This document shows positions 1,282 to 58,345 of a stretch of DNA of 64,000 bases, piece after piece (the first letter of the stretch is position 1; the number at the start of each line of letters is the position of its first letter). This DNA comes from Minisyncoccia bacterium (GTDB lineage: Bacteria > Patescibacteriota > Minisyncoccia > Phycocordibacterales > Zambryskibacteraceae): the NCBI GenBank assembly GCA_041742965.1, contig JBGTNQ010000004.1, positions 70,241 through 134,240 on the forward strand, read 5' to 3'. The notes under the pieces are model-generated. The model saw only the letters and a program-made list of their open reading frames with translations, did no database searches and was not told where the DNA came from. The position numbers and the translations under genes are program-made.

Positions 1282-1384
1282 AAATGTTTATGTATTGTAT
1301 ATCACGTGATTGTGCAGTCAATTCAAATAAAATAAAGAGATTTATTAAATTGTGGTCAGGAGTATTTTTCTTGTCGCCACAAGA

Positions 1385-1448
1385 AAAATCTCACGACCCT
1401 GGCTCGCCATTTTTTCTACTGAAAAAATATGGCTCCGCCCTGCACAAA
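1385..1448. repeat. tRNA-linked repeat, copy D (core TCACGACCCTGGCTCGCC, 1391-1408)
   Basis: Downstream of tRNA-Arg(TCG) and its terminator; its reverse complement aligns with copy C (CGAGCC(A/G)GGGTCG(T/C)GAGATTTTTC). Confidence 0.5.
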
Positions 1449-1482
1449 CCCCAAAAAAGCAAAGAAATTTGCTTTTTTGGGG
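1449..1482. terminator. bidirectional intrinsic terminator after tRNA-Arg(TCG)
   Basis: Perfect 15-bp stem CCCCAAAAAAGCAAA/TTTGCTTTTTTGGGG with GAAA loop, U-runs on both sides. Confidence 0.6.
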
Positions 1483-1486
1483 TTTG

Positions 1487-3123: not shown

Positions 3124-3183
3124 TCCGCACACCAACTTTCTCACGGTTTCTACAAAAATATAAGGACAAAGTTGGTGTGCGGA
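3124..3183. repeat. perfect 16-bp inverted repeat hairpin (TCCGCACACCAACTTT ... AAAGTTGGTGTGCGGA) right after the cca stop
   Basis: Read directly; 28-nt spacer; shares the CCGCACAC(C/T)AA(C/T)TT motif with 3471-3490, 3765-3784 and 5056-5068. Confidence 0.8.
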
Positions 3184-3470
3184 TAAACACAAAGACCGCA
3201 GAGCAGTTGCGGTGCTTGCGGCCTTAGGCGAAAGGGCCGCTCAGTTAGGAATGAAAAGGTGATATATCCGATAAAACAAAAAAATAACTAGGTTGGTGAT
3301 ATATGATTATCCTTCACGCTCCAGACCAAGCTGGTCTCTCGCAGAGTTCGAACTCTTGAAAGAACTATTGCTCAGAAATTTGTCCTTGAACTTCCTTCTG
3401 TGCTTCTGGTGAAAGTATATCACCTATAAAGGACATTGAAAATAAAACTGTGGATATCTAATTGTCCTTT

Positions 3471-3784
3471 ACCCGCACACTAACTTTATTCAAAGATACT
3501 TTTACTTTCTTTTATTCTCTCCATTAACTGCCTTCTGGCCTGCCCACGCAATTTAAGCATAGATTCCCTATGACGCGCATCATTTTCCGCAGAATAAGCT
3601 TCATAATAAACGAGGCAATACGGCCTTTTGTTTTTTGTAGAAACTACAAGCCCGCTGTTATGTTCTATTAATCGCCTTTTTAAGTTATTAGTTGAACCTA
3701 TATACAACTCGTTAACCTTTCTTGCTTTCAATACATATACATAGAACATAACAAAATAAAGTTAGTGTGCGGGTCAAGGCTATT
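3471..3784. mobile_element. GIY-YIG mini-element: 87-aa GIY-YIG gene bounded by perfect 20-bp inverted repeats ACCCGCACACTAACTTTATT (3471-3490) / AATAAAGTTAGTGTGCGGGT (3765-3784)
   Basis: The IRs are exact reverse complements and overlap the stop codons of the GIY-YIG gene and of xth. Confidence 0.5.
3486..3749 (-). CDS. GIY-YIG nuclease family protein (standalone, YhbQ-like)
   Basis: 87 aa; MFYVYVLKARKVNELYIGSTNNLKRRLIEHN is a canonical GIY-YIG motif. Confidence 0.8.
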   Translation of the reverse strand: MFYVYVLKARKVNELYIGSTNNLKRRLIEHNSGLVVSTKNKRPYCLVYYEAYSAENDARHRESMLKLRGQARRQLMERIKESKSIFE

Positions 3785-4989: not shown

Positions 4990-5064
4990 AAATTAACTCC
5001 TCTGTATAGATGAACTGTCTCTACATAGAGACTCTCACGAAGAGACTATTTGTCAACCCGCACA

Positions 5065-5982
5065 CTAATTTCTCTTATTGTGAAATCTTTTGTGAACATC
5101 TTTCAAATGCCTGTCAGTGACATGCGTATAAATCTGAGTAGTAGCAATATTGGCGTGGCCTAAAAGCATTTGAACGGAGCGTAAATCGGCTCCATTTTGC
5201 AAAAGATCGGTGGCGAAGCTGTGACGAATAACATGTGGTGTAACTTTTTTTGAAATACCAGCCTTTATTGCGTATTTTGCCACCAATCGCTCAATCGAGC
5301 GTGGGGTGAGGCGCTTTTCTCCCTCTTGGTTTTTATTTTTGCCGAGATTTACAAACATCGGGTCATCCATATCTGTGCGTTTTGCCAAATATTCCCTAAT
5401 CGCTTCCTTGGCTTCTTCTGATAAAAATACAACCCTCACCTTGTCTCCTTTTCCTCGCACAGAAAATTCATCGCGAGAGAGGTCTAGCTCTCGGGATAGA
5501 GAACAGAGCTCTGAAACACGAAGTCCTGTCGAGAAAAAAAGTTCTAAAATAGCCCTATCTCTAAGACCCTGAATGGCTGTTGTATCTGGGGCCTTCATAA
5601 TACGAGAAAGTTCTTCAGAGGTAATGAGGTCCAGAGATCGCTCAGGCACTTTAGCAAGCTCAATTCTGTCTGGGGGAAGAGAGTCTATATTTCTTTTTGC
5701 CAAATATTTGAGAAAAGCGCGTAAAGCAATGAGATAGTAATTCTGAGTTCTTTTTTTTATGGTTTCTTTTCGTCCACCAATAAAAGCTCCTGACTCTTTA
5801 CGATTAAGCCATAGACGATACTCGCGAATACGGTCGTCGGTAATATCTTTTGGGTCAGTGAGCTCTGTATTATTGAGAAAAGTAGTGAGATATCTGTCGT
5901 AATTCTCAATTGTTTTGAGACTTCGCCCACGAGAAACCTCCATATCTTCTAAAAATTGACGTTTAAGTTCAGGAAGTTTCAT
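5065..5982 (-). CDS. xerC: tyrosine recombinase XerC/XerD family
   Basis: 305 aa; N-terminal core-binding domain and C-terminal HVIRHSFAT...LLGH...TQIYTH catalytic motifs (R..HxxR..Y). Confidence 0.8.
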   Translation of the reverse strand: MKLPELKRQFLEDMEVSRGRSLKTIENYDRYLTTFLNNTELTDPKDITDDRIREYRLWLNRKESGAFIGGRKETIKKRTQNYYLIALRAFLKYLAKRNIDSLPPDRIELAKVPERSLDLITSEELSRIMKAPDTTAIQGLRDRAILELFFSTGLRVSELCSLSRELDLSRDEFSVRGKGDKVRVVFLSEEAKEAIREYLAKRTDMDDPMFVNLGKNKNQEGEKRLTPRSIERLVAKYAIKAGISKKVTPHVIRHSFATDLLQNGADLRSVQMLLGHANIATTQIYTHVTDRHLKDVHKRFHNKRN

Positions 5983-46355: not shown

Positions 46356-46368
46356 CAAAGCGTGAAGA

Positions 46369-46393
46369 AAATCTCCCCTGCGGGAGATTTTTA
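46369..46393 (+). terminator. intrinsic terminator after tRNA-Lys
   Basis: AAAATCTCCC-CTGC-GGGAGATTTT: perfect 10-bp stem with A/T flanks. Confidence 0.7.
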
Positions 46394-46475
46394 GCTTTTG
46401 CGAGGCGCAGTGATGTTTTTGTTTGAGCGAAGCTCAAGGCAAAAACCACGAGCCGGGGTCGCGAGATTTTTCCGT
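46394..46475. repeat. tRNA-linked repeat, copy C (core CACGAGCCGGGGTCGCGAG, 46447-46465)
   Basis: Its reverse complement aligns over about 100 nt with copy B (51540-51668), including the terminator-proximal part. Confidence 0.6.
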
Positions 46476-46564
46476 TAGGAAAAATACTTGTGACCACACT
46501 TCGACTCGTTTCTCCGAAACTCGCTCAGTGTAAACAGTGTGGACCAGAGTTACGTTACTCACAC

Positions 46565-51141: not shown

Positions 51142-51405
51142 ATGCCAATAACCAAATCAGCCAAAAAGGCCCTGAGAGGATCTCGCCGAAAACGAGAGGT
51201 TAATCTAGTTCAGAAAAAGACCATAACTGACACAATTAAAAAGTTTAGAAAGTTAGTTGCTGAGAAAAATGTTAAGGAAGCAAGCGCTCTTCTCCCGCAG
51301 GTTCAGAAAGTTTTGGACAAAGGTGCCAAGCGTGGAATTATGAAAAAGAATACTGCTTCTCGGAAAAAGTCTCGTTTTGTGAAAATGATTAAGGGTGCGA
51401 AATAA
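51142..51405 (+). CDS. rpsT: 30S ribosomal protein S20
   Basis: 87 aa; MPITKSAKKALRGSRRKREVN matches S20. Confidence 0.85.
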   Translation: MPITKSAKKALRGSRRKREVNLVQKKTITDTIKKFRKLVAEKNVKEASALLPQVQKVLDKGAKRGIMKKNTASRKKSRFVKMIKGAK

Positions 51406-51406
51406 C

Positions 51407-51437
51407 AAAACCCCCGCCTAGGCGGGGGTTTTGTTTT
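51407..51437. terminator. intrinsic terminator after rpsT
   Basis: AAAACCCCCGCC-TA-GGCGGGGGTTTTGTTTT. Confidence 0.8.
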
Positions 51438-51539
51438 AGCACTGGGAGTCTTTTTCTTCAATCTTTTTGTGGCCACAAATATTTTACTCCGCTCAAATTG
51501 TGCTTCCAGTAGGAACCTTTCCCTACGGGAACAGTAGAC

Positions 51540-51668
51540 CTTTTGGCTAAAATTTTCGCAAGGGGTGGGGTTTCGCGACCCCGGCTCGCGGTTTCGTGTG
51601 CTCACGAAACAACGCTCCGCCCAGCACAAAAGCAAAAAATCCCGCGCAGGCGGAATGTTTTACTTTTG
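51540..51668. repeat. tRNA-linked repeat, copy B (core TCGCGACCCCGGCTCGCGGTTTCG, 51573-51596) plus a terminator-like hairpin next to the tRNA
   Basis: Downstream of the minus-strand tRNA-Arg(GCG); aligns with reverse-complemented copy C. Confidence 0.6.
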
Positions 51669-51740
51669 TGCTCCCAGTAGGAATCGAACCTACATTTTAA
51701 CTTCCGCAAAGTTATGTCCTATCCATTGAACGATGGGAGC
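51669..51740 (-). tRNA. tRNA-Arg (anticodon GCG)
   Basis: Reverse complement GCTCCCATCGTTCAATGGATAGGACATAACTTTGCGGAAGTTAAAATGTAGGTTCGATTCCTACTGGGAGCA; anticodon stem TAACT/AGTTA with loop TTGCGGA. Confidence 0.65.
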
Positions 51741-51745
51741 GAAGT

Positions 51746-52009
51746 TTACTTGGCTATTTTAACATAACCATCTAAAATCATTTTTTCTATATAATCCTTC
51801 CTTTTCAGCTTTTTAAGGCGGTTTTCAATTTGTCTAGCAACCCCAAGGGAGGCGACTTCTTGTTTTAATACTAATCTTGGTTCGTGCATATTTCTTGTTG
51901 TTTGCGTGTGTCCGTTTAGGTGTTGTTTTAATCTTCGTTCCAAATTAGAGGTGCTTCCAATATAAAGCTTACCACTCTTGTCTCTAAGTATATAAATGTA
52001 TGACTTCAT
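51746..52009 (-). CDS. GIY-YIG nuclease family protein (second copy)
   Basis: MKSYIYILRDKSGKLYIGSTSNLERRLKQH; the ORF track extends to an upstream in-frame Met at 52027. Confidence 0.75.
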   Translation of the reverse strand: MKSYIYILRDKSGKLYIGSTSNLERRLKQHLNGHTQTTRNMHEPRLVLKQEVASLGVARQIENRLKKLKRKDYIEKMILDGYVKIAK

Positions 52010-52017
52010 GTTTGTTA

Positions 52018-52081
52018 TCCTATCCACCCCGACGTTAAAGTCGGGGAGCCGACCACGGCGTCGGCTTTGAACGATGGGAGC
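52018..52081. repeat. degenerate duplicate of the tRNA-Arg(GCG) 5' segment, interrupted by a 39-nt GC-rich double hairpin
   Basis: TCCTATCCA + [CCCCGACGTTAAAGTCGGGG AGCCGACCACGGCGTCGGC] + TTTGAACGATGGGAGC versus the tRNA region TCCTATCCATTGAACGATGGGAGC (51717-51740). Confidence 0.7.
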
Positions 52082-52171
52082 AATTTGGTGAACTAAAACT
52101 TATCTTACTTATGACAAAAATACAATCGCATCAAAAAAGCTACAAGCTAACAGCTGTAAGCTGAAAGCTAA

Positions 52172-52630
52172 CTAAAATCCCAATCTATCCATCAATTTGT
52201 GCAGATTTGATTCCACATGAAATACTTCTTGAAGATGTCGAGAAAGGTATTGATGAACTTTTTCAAGATCCGCATCTCCAAGAGGAACTATGATATAGGG
52301 CATAATAAAGCGTGCTGATTTTATAATAATCTTATGTTCGTCTTCATCAATCCAAAATGATTCTAAGCTATGAAATGGGTAAAAGGTTTTATCAGTTCTT
52401 ATTCCTCGGTTGTCTATGATGACATCAATTTCCTTTGGTGGCCTGGCGGCATAGAGTGAAAGCACAAAGCCAGACAAAATTATGACAAAGGCGAACAGTA
52501 CATTGTTTAAAATAATAGCTGTGACAGAGAGAGCTACAGTGATGATTCCAACAGCCCAAAACCAGTCGGGAGTTTGTTCTCTATGTTCATACTCGTGTGT
52601 TTGCCAGTGAAGAGGAGAAATTTGTTTCAT
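52172..52630 (-). CDS. hypothetical membrane protein
   Basis: 152 aa; two TM helices. Confidence 0.4.
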   Translation of the reverse strand: MKQISPLHWQTHEYEHREQTPDWFWAVGIITVALSVTAIILNNVLFAFVIILSGFVLSLYAARPPKEIDVIIDNRGIRTDKTFYPFHSLESFWIDEDEHKIIIKSARFIMPYIIVPLGDADLEKVHQYLSRHLQEVFHVESNLHKLMDRLGF

Positions 52631-58129: not shown

Positions 58130-58273
58130 AAAACTTACAGTTTCAGTACCCGTTGCGGATATTTTATTTGGCTTCGCCTCTAAAGTACCTCGCAACAGCT
58201 TCGATTCTTCTCTCAGGCCAAAACAATAGTCAGCAAAAAGCTCCAGGTCTTCGCTTTTACTTCGTTTATTTTG

Positions 58274-58345
58274 TGCCCTCGCGAGGAATCGAACCTCGAA
58301 TAGCGGCTTAGAAGTCCGCAGTTATATCCATTTAACTACAAGGGC
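58274..58345 (-). tRNA. tRNA-Arg (anticodon TCT)
   Basis: Reverse complement GCCCTTGTAGTTAAATGGATATAACTGCGGACTTCTAAGCCGCTATTCGAGGTTCGATTCCTCGCGAGGGCA; loop CTTCTAA; A31:G39 mismatch at the base of the anticodon stem. Confidence 0.65.

What the first reader, a model, noticed from the sequence alone, without database searches (positions are those of the whole stretch)
51669..52081. Second GIY-YIG gene inserted between tRNA-Arg(GCG) and a duplicated, hairpin-interrupted copy of the tRNA 5' segment
On the minus strand the order is: degenerate copy of tRNA positions 1-24 (split by a 39-nt double GC hairpin), GIY-YIG ORF, intact tRNA-Arg. Target duplication of a tRNA 5' segment around a GIY-YIG ORF is the pattern expected for a homing-endonuclease-type insertion. 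Two different GIY-YIG genes with two different boundary structures in one window suggest an active family of small nuclease-associated elements.
Basis: seen in the sequence. Interest (0 to 1): 0.6.

Follow-up and report, generated by a model that had tools for sequence, protein, structure and literature searches.

The report
Mobile GIY-YIG cassette inside tRNA gene
A tiny nuclease gene, led by a conserved double hairpin, has inserted into an arginine tRNA gene and re-supplies the tRNA's first 15 bases so the tRNA stays whole; the same design recurs at many tRNA genes across Parcubacteria and looks like an undescribed family of selfish DNA.

Summary
On the minus strand the order is: an exact copy of tRNA-Arg(GCG) nt 1-15, a 40-nt double hairpin (H), an exact copy of nt 16-24, an 87-aa GIY-YIG ORF, a 5-nt gap, then the intact tRNA.

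The three closest syntenic relatives lack all of this. The alignment shows one clean 341-nt gap exactly between tRNA nt 15 and 16.

The design recurs:
- Of 80 genome loci encoding homologues, 72 have a same-strand tRNA just downstream, covering 16 anticodons.
- 71 of 80 carry H just upstream of the ORF.
- 43 of 60 analysable leaders copy the local tRNA 5' end, split by H at nt 15/16, 10/11 or 33/34.

Only about 7% of sampled tRNA-Arg(GCG) genes are occupied, and some of those copies are decayed.

One element copy is 89% identical in DNA to the window's, although its host's flanking genes are only about 60% identical. This indicates horizontal spread into the same site.

I read it as a homing-type selfish cassette built on a minimal Slx1/UPF0213-like nuclease. 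Insertion and mobility are well supported. The cutting step and the role of H are inferred. I found no published description.

The parts
52082..52127 (-). Ancestral upstream flank of the tRNA (GATTGTATTTTTGTCATAAGTAAGATAAGTTTTAGTTCACCAAATT). It is the probable native tRNA promoter region and now lies upstream of the displaced tRNA 5' segment.
   Evidence: The flank is nearly identical in the empty-site relative L240 and similar in L246, where it directly abuts the intact tRNA. The promoter role is inferred; the sigma-70 consensus scan found nothing here.
52067..52081 (-). Displaced copy of tRNA-Arg(GCG) nt 1-15 ('A'). This is the original 5' end of the host tRNA gene.
   Evidence: It matches the tRNA at 15 of 15 bases, and the 15-mer occurs only twice in the window, against 0.03 expected. 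It sits where the tRNA 5' end lies at empty sites. In relatives this segment follows the local tRNA.
52027..52066 (-). H: a 40-nt conserved double hairpin at the left edge of the inserted DNA, at the tRNA 15/16 junction. Hairpin 1 is 52066..52047 (AGCCGAC G..G GTCGGCT). Hairpin 2 is 52046..52027 (CCCCGAC ..C GTCGGGG).
   Evidence: Folding. It is the only such motif pair in the 64-kb window. The motif occurs in 78 of 81 fetched loci and within 170 nt upstream of the ORF in 71 of 80. On an 18-sequence alignment, 98.8% of cells are paired, with 35 double-change cells against 9.4 in shuffles, 0 of 500 shuffles as high.
52018..52026 (-). B': a copy of tRNA nt 16-24 (TGGATAGGA) carried inside the element. 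It overlaps a possible Shine-Dalgarno-like AGGA.
   Evidence: 9 of 9 bases match here. In relatives only the first 5-6 nt stay tRNA-like. It follows the element rather than the local tRNA: L203 has T16 against a tRNA C16, and L067 has CTCAT against a tRNA CTCAG.
52010..52017 (-). Spacer TAACAAAC between B' and the start codon.
   Evidence: Sequence. It is identical in the 87%-identical relative L203.
51746..52009 (-). GIY-YIG nuclease gene, 87 aa, consisting of the catalytic domain only.
   Evidence: Pfam GIY-YIG, E = 7e-14. Y6, Y16, G18, R26, H30 and E62 are invariant in 37 homologues. The AF2 model has pLDDT 89. The nearest solved folds are UPF0213 BH0048 and EF2693, then Slx1.
51741..51745 (-). 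5-nt gap (ACTTC) between the stop codon and the tRNA. This is the right edge of the element-specific DNA.
   Evidence: Sequence. It is conserved as ACTTT in L203. In 65 of 80 homologous loci the tRNA starts no more than 35 nt after the end of the protein match.
51668..51740 (-). Intact tRNA-Arg(GCG). Its nt 1-15 (51740..51726) are the second copy of 'A', supplied by the insertion. From nt 16 onward it is the original gene.
   Evidence: ARAGORN and Rfam, 62.9 bits. It is identical to the tRNA at the empty sites L139 and L246.
51629..51656 (-). Terminator-like hairpin plus T-run following the tRNA. It is the probable end of the transcription unit.
   Evidence: Terminator scan and a long inverted repeat that includes the tRNA 3' end (I2).

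Best explanation
The region is a small selfish DNA cassette of 341 nt. It consists of the double hairpin H, 9 nt of tRNA-like sequence (B'), a short spacer, an 87-aa GIY-YIG nuclease gene, a 5-nt gap, and a fresh copy of tRNA nt 1-15. It is inserted in the D-loop of the tRNA-Arg(GCG) gene between nt 15 and 16. Because the cassette ends with its own copy of nt 1-15, an intact tRNA gene is rebuilt downstream. The original nt 1-15 are left upstream, directly abutting H.

The most likely mode of spread is homing (inferred). The nuclease breaks or nicks an unoccupied tRNA gene at the D-loop junction, and the break is repaired from an occupied copy. The displaced 5' segment serves as the left homology arm and the tRNA body as the right arm. 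This copies H and the ORF, and sometimes part or all of the donor tRNA, into the new gene.

The ORF probably rides on the tRNA's own promoter and is released from the tRNA by RNase P (inferred).

H is an integral cis element that always marks the junction. Its role is not established. Possibilities are a nuclease binding or cleavage structure, a blocker of the old target site, or a clamp next to the short homology arm.
For: **Shown: it is an insertion.** The three closest syntenic relatives, whose adjacent 152-aa gene is 80%, 77% and 74% identical, have the tRNA directly after the same conserved upstream flank. They have no GIY-YIG gene and no H. The alignment gives one 341-nt gap exactly at nt 15|16.

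**Shown: the architecture recurs.**
- 72 of 80 homologous loci have a same-strand tRNA downstream, 65 of them within 35 nt, covering 16 anticodons.
- H lies upstream of the ORF in 71 of 80.
- 43 of 60 analysable leaders copy the local tRNA 5' end, split by H at 15/16 (34 loci), 10/11 (8) or 33/34 (1).

**Shown: sporadic distribution and decay.** Of 99 sampled tRNA-Arg(GCG) loci with enough upstream sequence:
- 4 carry an intact element.
- 3 carry remnants: an ORF with an internal deletion (L132), a 5'-truncated ORF (L125), and a locus where the ORF is gone but A-H-B' remains (L181).
- 1 carries a different GIY-YIG subfamily.
Sources.

**Shown: horizontal transfer.** Between the window and L203 the ORF is 87% identical in protein and 88.6% in DNA, and the leader is 96% identical. 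The flanking p152, rpsT and ruvA genes are only 58-60% identical in protein and 61-65% in DNA, and the 80 nt upstream of the relic are 58% identical.

**Shown: which parts belong to host and which to element.** The segment 5' of H follows the local tRNA: position 7 is A in the window and G in L203, matching each host's own tRNA. B' follows the element.

**Shown: co-conversion of flanking tRNA sequence.**
- L179 has a chimeric tRNA. Its 5' strand mispairs with its own 3' strand, whereas the upstream relic pairs perfectly with that 3' strand.
- In L002, L010, L013 and L019 the relic is a different allele from the resident tRNA.

**Shown: target switching.** The junction class follows the protein clade across Thr, Val, Phe and Ala tRNAs. 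L067 (Val) keeps the B' of an Ala tRNA.

**Shown: H is a real structure**.

**Precedent.** The T4 GIY-YIG endonuclease SegB recognises a conserved tRNA T-psi-C motif and drives inheritance of a tRNA gene region (PMC2330249).
Against: - No cleavage activity or cut site has been shown for this nuclease.
- The protein has no DNA-binding domain. Its nearest characterised fold relative, Slx1, is structure-specific rather than sequence-specific.
- The rebuilt tRNA retains the presumed target site, so the element has no obvious self-immunity. Tandem and degenerate second copies (L010, L073) suggest occupied loci are re-invaded.
- A 15-nt left arm is short for RecA-type repair.
- Identical proteins were always found in the same genomic context, so no very recent jump was caught.
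- No presence/absence polymorphism within a single population was found.
- A simple protective-insertion role would not require the strong sequence conservation of H (CCGACG...GTCGG / CCGAC...CGTCGG) or the conserved first 5-6 nt of B'.
Confidence: 0.6

Rival explanations
1. This is a structure-directed transposon-like element. The Slx1-like nuclease does not read the tRNA sequence. Instead it acts on the branched DNA formed when H folds, as a cruciform or in single-stranded DNA. It cuts at the element boundary, and the cassette is excised or copied and re-integrated by recombination through the short tRNA-derived repeats that flank H. This could be Campbell-type or 'ends-in' integration, or homology-facilitated illegitimate recombination during natural transformation.
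For: - The nearest characterised fold is Slx1, a branched-DNA nuclease (rmsd 2.4 A over about 70 residues), and the protein lacks a DNA-binding domain.
- H is two-fold pseudo-symmetric: hairpin 1 is the reverse-complement type of hairpin 2. It tolerates loops of 5 to over 30 nt, as expected for a folded rather than linear site.
- In about a quarter of loci, H copies flank the whole cassette, each embedded in a full target-site context. H copies within one locus are nearly identical (L013, L076, L073).
- Hairpins nested inside hairpin loops occur (L022, L017, L054).
Against: - The minimal form, including the window, has only one H.
- No circular or excised form has been seen.
- The junction sites are conserved tRNA motifs (TCAR|YKGRTA and TAG|CTCAG), which fits sequence recognition at least as well.
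- Co-conversion tracts of variable length inside the tRNA (L179) are typical of break repair from a donor.
Confidence: 0.2
2. H is an independent miniature hairpin element that merely landed in a neutral relic left by an ordinary free-standing homing endonuclease gene. It has no role in the cassette.
For: - Nested and multiple H copies suggest H can spread on its own.
- H-interrupted pseudo-tRNAs without an adjacent ORF occur downstream of intact tRNAs in 17 of 66 loci.
Against: - H is present in 71-78 of 80 elements, always at the junction. The junction position follows the protein clade.
- H is almost absent elsewhere: one copy in the 64-kb window.
- Elements with an uninterrupted relic were essentially not seen.
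- H and the ORF were transferred together between the hosts of the window and L203.
Confidence: 0.07
3. This is an RNA-guided or RNA-scaffolded nuclease. The transcript segment A-H-B' would act as a bipartite guide, with tRNA nt 1-15 and 16-21 flanking a two-hairpin protein-binding scaffold. It would position the minimal nuclease at the 15/16 junction of the complementary strand of empty tRNA genes.
For: - Both flanks of H are kept tRNA-identical right up to H: at least 93% identity at positions -8 to -1 and 86-98% at +1 to +6. Identity then decays to background 3' of +6.
- The 5' flank lies outside the transferred DNA and so automatically matches each new host. This recalls the IscB omega-RNA guide (comparison from my own knowledge).
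- An 87-aa protein without a DNA-binding domain needs some source of specificity.
Against: - The same pattern is predicted by simple homology arms and by refreshment of the 5' flank at each homing event.
- An 87-aa protein is far smaller than any known RNA-guided nuclease, and H is only 40 nt.
- The reverse-complement relation between the two hairpin loops points to DNA-level symmetry.
- No expression data are available.
- Dead elements (L132, L181) still have perfect flanks.
Confidence: 0.08
4. This is a stable host operon rather than a mobile element. The small nuclease is a housekeeping partner co-transcribed with the tRNA, and the tRNA-like leader is a regulatory element.
For: - The protein family is well conserved, at 60-70% identity across many Parcubacteria lineages with an intact catalytic motif.
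- Identical proteins always sit in the same context.
Against: - The element is absent from the three closest relatives and from about 92% of sampled tRNA-Arg(GCG) genes.
- It sits next to 16 different tRNA species.
- Decayed copies exist.
- Element identity far exceeds host identity.
Confidence: 0.03

Closest known systems
Phage T4 SegB, and free-standing Seg/Mob homing endonucleases in general
   Same: SegB is a free-standing GIY-YIG nuclease gene located among tRNA genes. It recognises a conserved tRNA-gene motif (the T-psi-C stem-loop) and drives non-reciprocal inheritance of itself together with flanking tRNA sequence (PMC2330249). Here the targets are conserved D-arm motifs, and flanking tRNA sequence is co-converted.
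   Different: SegB is a two-domain protein of about 220 aa in a phage genome. It lies between genes, makes no target duplication and has no hairpin element. The protein here is 87 aa (catalytic domain only) and chromosomal in CPR bacteria, with none found in IMG/VR. It sits inside a tRNA gene that it rebuilds, and it always comes with H.
Free-standing endonuclease genes in fungal mitochondria that carry a replacement piece of the host gene and leave the old piece as a relic (for example Allomyces atp6; my own knowledge, paper not read here), and 'fractured genes' (PMC2677866)
   Same: In these cases an endonuclease ORF is inserted into an essential gene. Gene function is preserved because the element brings a duplicate of the disrupted part, and the displaced fragment remains beside it.
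   Different: In those cases the 3' part of a protein gene is duplicated, or a split intein is used. Here the 5' 7-33 nt of a tRNA gene are duplicated, the relic is kept exact, and a conserved double hairpin marks the junction.
UPF0213 (BH0048, EF2693) stand-alone GIY-YIG proteins and the Slx1 nuclease domain
   Same: These are the best sequence and fold matches. They share the same size class and a catalytic domain without a DNA-binding module.
   Different: UPF0213 proteins have no known mobility or tRNA linkage. Slx1 needs Slx4 and acts in DNA repair. This subfamily has its own conserved motifs (GHTQTTRNM, KLKRKDYIEK).
Double-hairpin elements and GC clusters of fungal mitochondria, and REP/REPIN doublets (my own knowledge)
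   Same: All are short GC-rich palindromic doublets in AT-rich genomes that can nest and spread.
   Different: H is not dispersed through the genome. It is tied to one nuclease gene family and to specific positions inside tRNA-derived sequence.
IscB/TnpB (OMEGA) elements with an RNA at the element boundary (my own knowledge; review PMC13565253 was listed but not read)
   Same: A structured, conserved non-coding element lies at the 5' boundary of a nuclease ORF. It is directly adjacent to flanking target-derived sequence that changes with each host site.
   Different: There is no RuvC or HNH domain. The protein is 4-5 times smaller, H is 40 nt against more than 100-200 nt, and there is no IS200/605 transposase context. 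RNA guidance is not shown here.
Integrase-mediated genomic islands at tRNA genes
   Same: Both target a tRNA gene, preserve it, and leave a direct repeat of tRNA sequence.
   Different: Islands duplicate the tRNA 3' end, encode a tyrosine integrase and span kilobases. Here the 5' end is duplicated, there is no integrase, and the whole insertion is 341 nt.

Membership tests
GIY-YIG nuclease superfamily | GIY...YIG motifs, a conserved Arg, His/Tyr and Glu, and the alpha/beta fold | tested here: met
   Pfam PF01541, E = 7e-14. Y6, Y16, G18, R26, H30 and E62 are invariant in 37 sequences. The AF2 model has pLDDT 89 with a beta-beta-alpha-beta-alpha-alpha order. Fold matches to UPF0213, Slx1, I-TevI and UvrC.
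Canonical GIY-YIG homing endonucleases (I-TevI, I-BmoI, Seg proteins) | Two-domain build: an N-terminal catalytic domain plus a linker and a C-terminal DNA-binding domain | tested here: not met
   The protein is 87 aa and the catalytic domain fills it. NCBIfam grpIintron_endo matches only residues 2-47, at 34.6 bits against a cut-off of 56.
Canonical GIY-YIG homing endonucleases (I-TevI, I-BmoI, Seg proteins) | Site-specific cleavage of the allele that lacks the element | not testable with these tools
   This requires purified protein and substrates.
Homing-type selfish elements (behavioural definition) | Sporadic presence at one defined site, with precise empty sites in close relatives | tested here: met
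   Empty sites in L240-L246, L139, L172 and L118. About 92% of 99 sampled tRNA-Arg(GCG) loci are empty.
Homing-type selfish elements (behavioural definition) | Horizontal spread into the same site, and co-conversion of flanking target sequence | tested here: met
   The element is 89% identical in DNA while host genes are 61-65% identical. L179 has a chimeric tRNA, and the relic allele differs from the resident tRNA in L002, L010, L013 and L019.
Homing-type selfish elements (behavioural definition) | Insertion destroys the recognition site, giving self-immunity | tested here: inconclusive
   H splits the old site, but the rebuilt tRNA carries an intact one. Tandem copies suggest re-invasion.
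UPF0213 / Slx1-like stand-alone GIY-YIG cluster | Closest sequence and fold similarity, with a single-domain protein of about 90-100 aa | tested here: met
   Profile search against PDB: 1zg2 at 1.2e-11, 1ywl at 5.7e-9, Slx1 at 6e-4. Foldseek ranks 1-5.
Insertion sequences / MITEs | Terminal inverted repeats, a transposase of a known class, and a short target duplication of fixed length | tested here: not met
   The element has no terminal inverted repeats. H is a single internal doublet in the minimal form. The duplication length equals the junction position (7, 10, 15 or 33 nt). No transposase family matched.
tRNA introns (group I, or bulge-helix-bulge type) | An intervening sequence inside the functional tRNA gene that is removed from the transcript | tested here: not met
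   The functional tRNA is uninterrupted. The interrupted copy lacks nt 25-76. No intron family matched in Rfam at E up to 10.
Integrase-type tRNA-targeting islands | A tyrosine or serine recombinase gene and duplication of the tRNA 3' end | tested here: not met
   The only ORF is GIY-YIG, and the duplicated segment is nt 1-15/24 of the 5' end.
OMEGA / RNA-guided nucleases (IscB, TnpB) | A RuvC (with or without HNH) nuclease of at least about 350 aa, plus a long structured guide RNA | tested here: not met
   The protein is an 87-aa GIY-YIG domain and H is 40 nt. No Rfam match, including HEARO.

The most novel reading that the evidence does not exclude
The 87-aa GIY-YIG protein may get its specificity not from a protein DNA-binding domain but from the nucleic-acid element it travels with. 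In this reading the two-hairpin H is the protein-binding scaffold. The tRNA-identical segments on either side (nt 1-15 from the host, nt 16-21 from the element) pair with the target across the 15/16 junction, as RNA or as folded single-stranded DNA. That would make this the smallest known guide- or structure-programmed nuclease, and one that re-targets itself automatically at each new tRNA.
Probability: 0.1. Interest if true: 0.95.

Novelty: new variant of a known kind. Interest (0 to 1): 0.75.

Why it matters
If this reading is right, Parcubacteria (CPR bacteria with tiny genomes and mostly single-copy tRNA genes) host a widespread, undescribed family of selfish elements. These elements live inside essential tRNA genes without killing them.

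- The element moves tRNA sequence between lineages, producing chimeric and replaced tRNAs. This is a previously unnoticed route of tRNA gene evolution and a source of pseudo-tRNA arrays that confuse annotation and break assemblies.
- It pairs a minimal 87-aa nuclease with a conserved 40-nt double hairpin at a defined target junction. This gives a compact, experimentally tractable system for asking how a domain-only GIY-YIG enzyme achieves site choice, whether by sequence, DNA structure or guide.
- Gene callers often extend the ORF upstream through H (110-140 aa calls), so current annotations hide the element.

Tried and rejected
- **Rfam.** The gathering search of the whole window found only tRNAs. 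The search at E up to 10 over 51380-52200 found no family for H, the leader or the downstream region.
- **Promoter scan.** No sigma-70 consensus lies upstream of the relic. The promoter claim therefore rests only on flank conservation.
- **Chance or promoter explanation for the upstream copy.** Rejected and by recurrence at 16 tRNA species.
- **Alternative single long-hairpin fold of H.** Not supported. The closing pairs pair less often than in shuffles.
- **G-T versus A-C mismatch bias,** used to tell RNA from DNA structure. Confounded by the symmetry of H and too few mismatches, so inconclusive.
- **Pairing between A and B' closing a three-way junction**. It is present in the window, but the B' positions involved are the poorly conserved ones, so it was not pursued.
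- **Phage origin.** There are no full-length relatives in IMG/VR, only N-terminal motif matches.
- **Defence-system membership.** PADLOC gave only weak N-terminal motif hits.
- **Very recent transposition.** Contexts of the identical proteins P0012 and P0065 were always the same locus.
- **The T-arm/acceptor-like fragment downstream of the tRNA as the other half of a split old tRNA.** Rejected for this window, because the same fragment is present at the empty sites L240 and L246.
- **Literature.** Seven full-text searches found no description of this architecture.
Full report
**1. What is in the window**

Reading the minus strand from 52127 down to 51629 gives the following order:
- a 46-nt flank;
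- GCTCCCATCGTTCAA (52081..52067);
- a 40-nt GC-rich insert (52066..52027);
- TGGATAGGA (52026..52018);
- the spacer TAACAAAC;
- an 87-codon ORF (ATG 52009, stop 51746);
- the gap ACTTC;
- tRNA-Arg(GCG) (51740..51668; ARAGORN, Rfam 62.9 bits);
- a terminator-like hairpin with a T-run.

The two short segments are exact copies of tRNA nt 1-15 and 16-24. The 15-mer occurs nowhere else in the 64 kb, where 0.03 matches are expected by chance. The insert, which I call H, folds into two adjacent 7-bp hairpins. The ORF is a GIY-YIG domain (Pfam E = 7e-14).

**2. It is an insertion**

The 152-aa gene upstream (52172-52630) is syntenic with this tRNA in many relatives. I searched for its closest homologues and fetched the loci of the three closest, at 80%, 77% and 74% identity. 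All three have tRNA-Arg(GCG) directly after that gene. None has a GIY-YIG gene or an H motif.

Aligning the window with L240 and L246 gives a single 341-nt gap placed exactly between tRNA nt 15 and 16. The 46 nt upstream are nearly identical between the occupied and the empty sites. More distant syntenic relatives (L139, L172, L118) are also empty. L139 carries a tRNA identical to the window's over its full length, and the part of the L172 tRNA that lies on its contig is also identical.

The upstream 15-nt copy is therefore the original 5' end of the gene. The copy next to the ORF came with the insertion.

**3. The design is recurrent**

A protein search found 409 homologues, most 86-91 aa long and 55-70% identical, from Parcubacteria/Paceibacterota genomes. 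The catalytic residues are invariant.

A scan of one genome per species returned 80 loci:
- In 72, a same-strand tRNA follows the ORF; in 65 it starts within 35 nt of the end of the protein match. Of the other eight loci, four end at the contig edge too close to the ORF to hold a tRNA. Together the tRNAs cover 16 anticodons of Arg, Thr, Val, Ala, His, Ile and Phe.
- An H motif lies within 170 nt upstream of the ORF in 71 of 80.
- In 43 of 60 analysable leaders, the sequence on both sides of H is a copy of the local tRNA. It is split at nt 15/16 (34 loci), 10/11 (8 loci) or 33/34 (1 locus).

On the 5' side of H, identity to the local tRNA holds all the way back to nt 1, at 79-100% per position. 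On the 3' side it is 86-98% for six positions and then falls to background.

**4. H is a conserved structure**

H has the form xxCCGAC-G...-GTCGGx'x' followed by yyCCGAC-...C-GTCGGy'y'. The two closing base pairs of each hairpin covary among CC/GG, AG/CT, CT/AG, TC/GA and TT/AA; 188 of 196 cells are Watson-Crick pairs.

On an 18-sequence alignment, 98.8% of cells pair. There are 35 double-change cells against 9.4 in shuffles, with 0 of 500 shuffles as high. A rival single long-hairpin fold is not supported.

Hairpin 1 is the reverse-complement type of hairpin 2, so H is two-fold pseudo-symmetric. Loops range from 5 to over 30 nt and sometimes contain further hairpins of the same kind. The window holds only this one H. 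Rfam has no matching family.

**5. It is sporadic, it decays and it moves**

A metagenome scan with a tRNA-Arg(GCG) pattern gave 120 loci, of which 99 have at least 450 nt of upstream sequence. Among those 99:
- four carry an intact element;
- three carry remnants (L132 with an internally deleted ORF, L125 with a 5'-truncated ORF, and L181 where A-H-B' remains but the ORF is gone);
- one carries an unrelated GIY-YIG subfamily.

The closest element copy is P0002 in L203. It sits at the same tRNA in a host whose flanking genes are only 58-60% identical in protein and 61-65% in DNA. Yet the ORF is 87% identical in protein and 88.6% in DNA, and the leader is 96% identical. Similarity stops sharply at the 5' end of the displaced tRNA segment. 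This is horizontal transfer into the same site.

Three further observations define what belongs to the host and what to the element:
- In this pair, the segment 5' of H matches each host's own tRNA (A7 in the window, G7 in L203). B' keeps the element's T16 even though the L203 tRNA has C16.
- L067 (tRNA-Val) and L078 (tRNA-Ala) have proteins 76% identical. Each has a locally derived 5' segment, but both carry the Ala-type B' CTCAT. On a neighbour-joining tree, the 10/11 junction class forms one protein clade spanning Thr, Val, Phe and Ala tRNAs. Elements therefore switch tRNA species, and the junction position follows the nuclease lineage.
- L179 has a chimeric tRNA. Its 5' strand is the type seen in L195 and mispairs (G2-G71) with its own 3' strand, while the upstream relic pairs perfectly with that 3' strand. 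In L002, L010, L013 and L019 the relic is a different allele from a self-consistent resident tRNA. Variable co-conversion of the flanking target is a hallmark of break-repair homing.

**6. Variants seen in relatives**

- In 17 of 66 loci, H-interrupted pseudo-tRNAs, usually lacking nt 1-7, follow the intact tRNA.
- In L013, the 3' acceptor strand of the downstream relic matches the upstream relic rather than the intact tRNA. There a cassette of ORF plus a whole replacement tRNA, bounded by near-identical H copies, sits inside an older tRNA.
- One clade has the order tRNA-ORF-H-relic (L040, L053, L063, L076).
- Tandem second copies with deleted ORFs occur (L010, L073). This suggests that occupied loci can be invaded again and that the element has no strict self-immunity.

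**7. The protein**

- The AF2 model has pLDDT 89.
- The nearest solved relatives are the uncharacterised UPF0213 proteins BH0048 and EF2693. Next comes the Slx1 nuclease domain (rmsd 2.4 A over about 70 residues), then the I-TevI and UvrC catalytic domains.
- The protein has no DNA-binding domain. It is therefore not a canonical two-domain GIY-YIG homing endonuclease, although the element behaves like a homing element.
- No full-length relatives occur in viral contigs, and there is no meaningful defence-system match.
- The subfamily comprises 89 clusters (at 50% identity) with E no higher than 1e-10.

**8. Interpretation**

*Shown:*
- a 341-nt insertion at nt 15/16 that rebuilds the tRNA;
- recurrence at many tRNAs;
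- a sporadic and decaying distribution;
- horizontal transfer;
- the host origin of the 5' segment and the element origin of H-B'-ORF;
- co-conversion of tRNA sequence.

*Inferred:*
- the nuclease breaks or nicks empty tRNA genes at the junction, and repair from an occupied allele copies the element, with the displaced 5' segment as the left arm and the tRNA as the right arm;
- the ORF is expressed from the conserved tRNA upstream region and separated from the tRNA by RNase P.

*Unresolved:*
- what H does;
- how an 87-aa enzyme finds its site;
- how the rebuilt target is tolerated.

The main rivals are a structure-directed, transposon-like mechanism acting on H, and a guide or scaffold role for A-H-B'.

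**9. Comparison with known systems and novelty**

The nearest known system is T4 SegB, a GIY-YIG homing endonuclease that recognises a conserved tRNA motif and spreads a tRNA gene region (PMC2330249). Also close are endonuclease ORFs that carry a replacement piece of the gene they interrupt (my own knowledge; compare the fractured genes of PMC2677866).

Seven full-text searches found no description of this architecture. I rate it a new variant of a known kind. It is a homing-type selfish element with three unusual features: a domain-only nuclease, duplication of the tRNA 5' segment, and an obligatory conserved double hairpin at the junction.

**10.

The other GIY-YIG gene in the window (3489-3749) is 31% identical to this one. 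It is not next to a tRNA and is bounded by a 25-nt inverted repeat whose core motif recurs nearby. It belongs to a different subfamily with a different architecture. The two genes should not be counted as one active family.

Noticed in passing
window about 51498-51625 (-), about 46357-46520 (+), about 1330-1485 (-); also L135, L152, L070, L025, L014, L244: A second conserved element ('E2', about 110 nt) lies 80-110 nt downstream of tRNAs. It follows a long terminator-like hairpin that includes the tRNA 3' end. Its core reads GGGCGGAG-hairpin-GAGCCGGGGTCG[A/C]GAGA-hairpin-ACTCGTGACCAC, and the hairpins show compensatory changes. The core motif has 13 hits in 1.08 Mb, 12 of them 80-270 nt after a same-strand tRNA. 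Three of the ten tRNAs in the window have it. It has no Rfam match and is independent of the GIY-YIG element, since it also occurs at empty sites.
   Followed up: partly
window 51498-51535 (-): A T-arm plus acceptor-like fragment, GTAGGgaaaggttCCTACTGGAAGCACAA, resembles the 3' end of the tRNA-Arg(GCG) about 150 nt upstream (D1). A related fragment is present at the empty sites L240 and L246, so it predates the GIY-YIG insertion. In some relatives, E2-type inserts are flanked by exact copies, sense or antisense, of the local tRNA 3' end (L014, L070, L064).
   Followed up: partly
window 3466-3779 (-), 3124-3183, 5057-5071: The other GIY-YIG gene (3489-3749, 87 aa, 31% identical) is enclosed by a 25-nt inverted repeat with 96% complementarity. 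The repeat's core, CCGCACAC[T/C]AACTT, recurs as a hairpin pair at 3124-3183 and once at 5057. That makes 5 matches against 0.07 expected. It may be a different small element. Relatives were not examined.
   Followed up: partly
L179 (tRNA about 2327-2400), L195: L179 has a chimeric tRNA-Arg(GCG). Its 5' acceptor strand, GGTCCCG, is the type found in L195 and gives a G2-G71 mismatch with its own 3' strand, CGGGGGC. The displaced upstream fragment, GCCCTCG, pairs perfectly with that 3' strand. The element therefore appears to have imported part of a foreign tRNA.
   Followed up: yes
L019 about 1846-2050, L018 about 1831-1950, L013 about 1842-2030, L076, L053: Arrays of pseudo-tRNAs interrupted by H at the same junction lie downstream of the intact tRNA. 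Their acceptor and T-stems are of other lineages' alleles; for example, one relic in L019 has the window's GCTCCCA/TGGGAGC type. Some are nearly full length, and ARAGORN mis-calls one of them (L053). Many contigs that carry the identical protein P0065 end just after the ORF, about 110-130 nt beyond it, which suggests assembly breaks at such repeats.
   Followed up: partly
L198 (ORF about 490-860), L005 247-441, L046 278-505: Other, more distant small GIY-YIG subfamilies (33-41% identical) also sit immediately upstream of tRNA genes (Arg-GCG, Ser-GCT, Ala-TGC). L198 has no H or tRNA relic upstream of its ORF; the L005 and L046 leaders were not examined. Adjacency to tRNAs may therefore be a broader habit of stand-alone GIY-YIG genes in these bacteria.
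   Followed up: no
window 51668-51740, 1486-1558, 58273-58345: The genome decodes CGN arginine codons with tRNA-Arg(GCG) plus tRNA-Arg(TCG) rather than the usual bacterial tRNA-Arg(ACG). No ACG tRNA lies in this 64-kb window.
   Followed up: no
proteins P0124-P0141 and others: Many database homologues are called as proteins of 110-147 aa, with the GIY-YIG domain at the C-terminal end. Gene callers are probably starting upstream and reading through H and the tRNA relic. The window itself has an in-frame GTG at 52027 that would do this.
   Followed up: no
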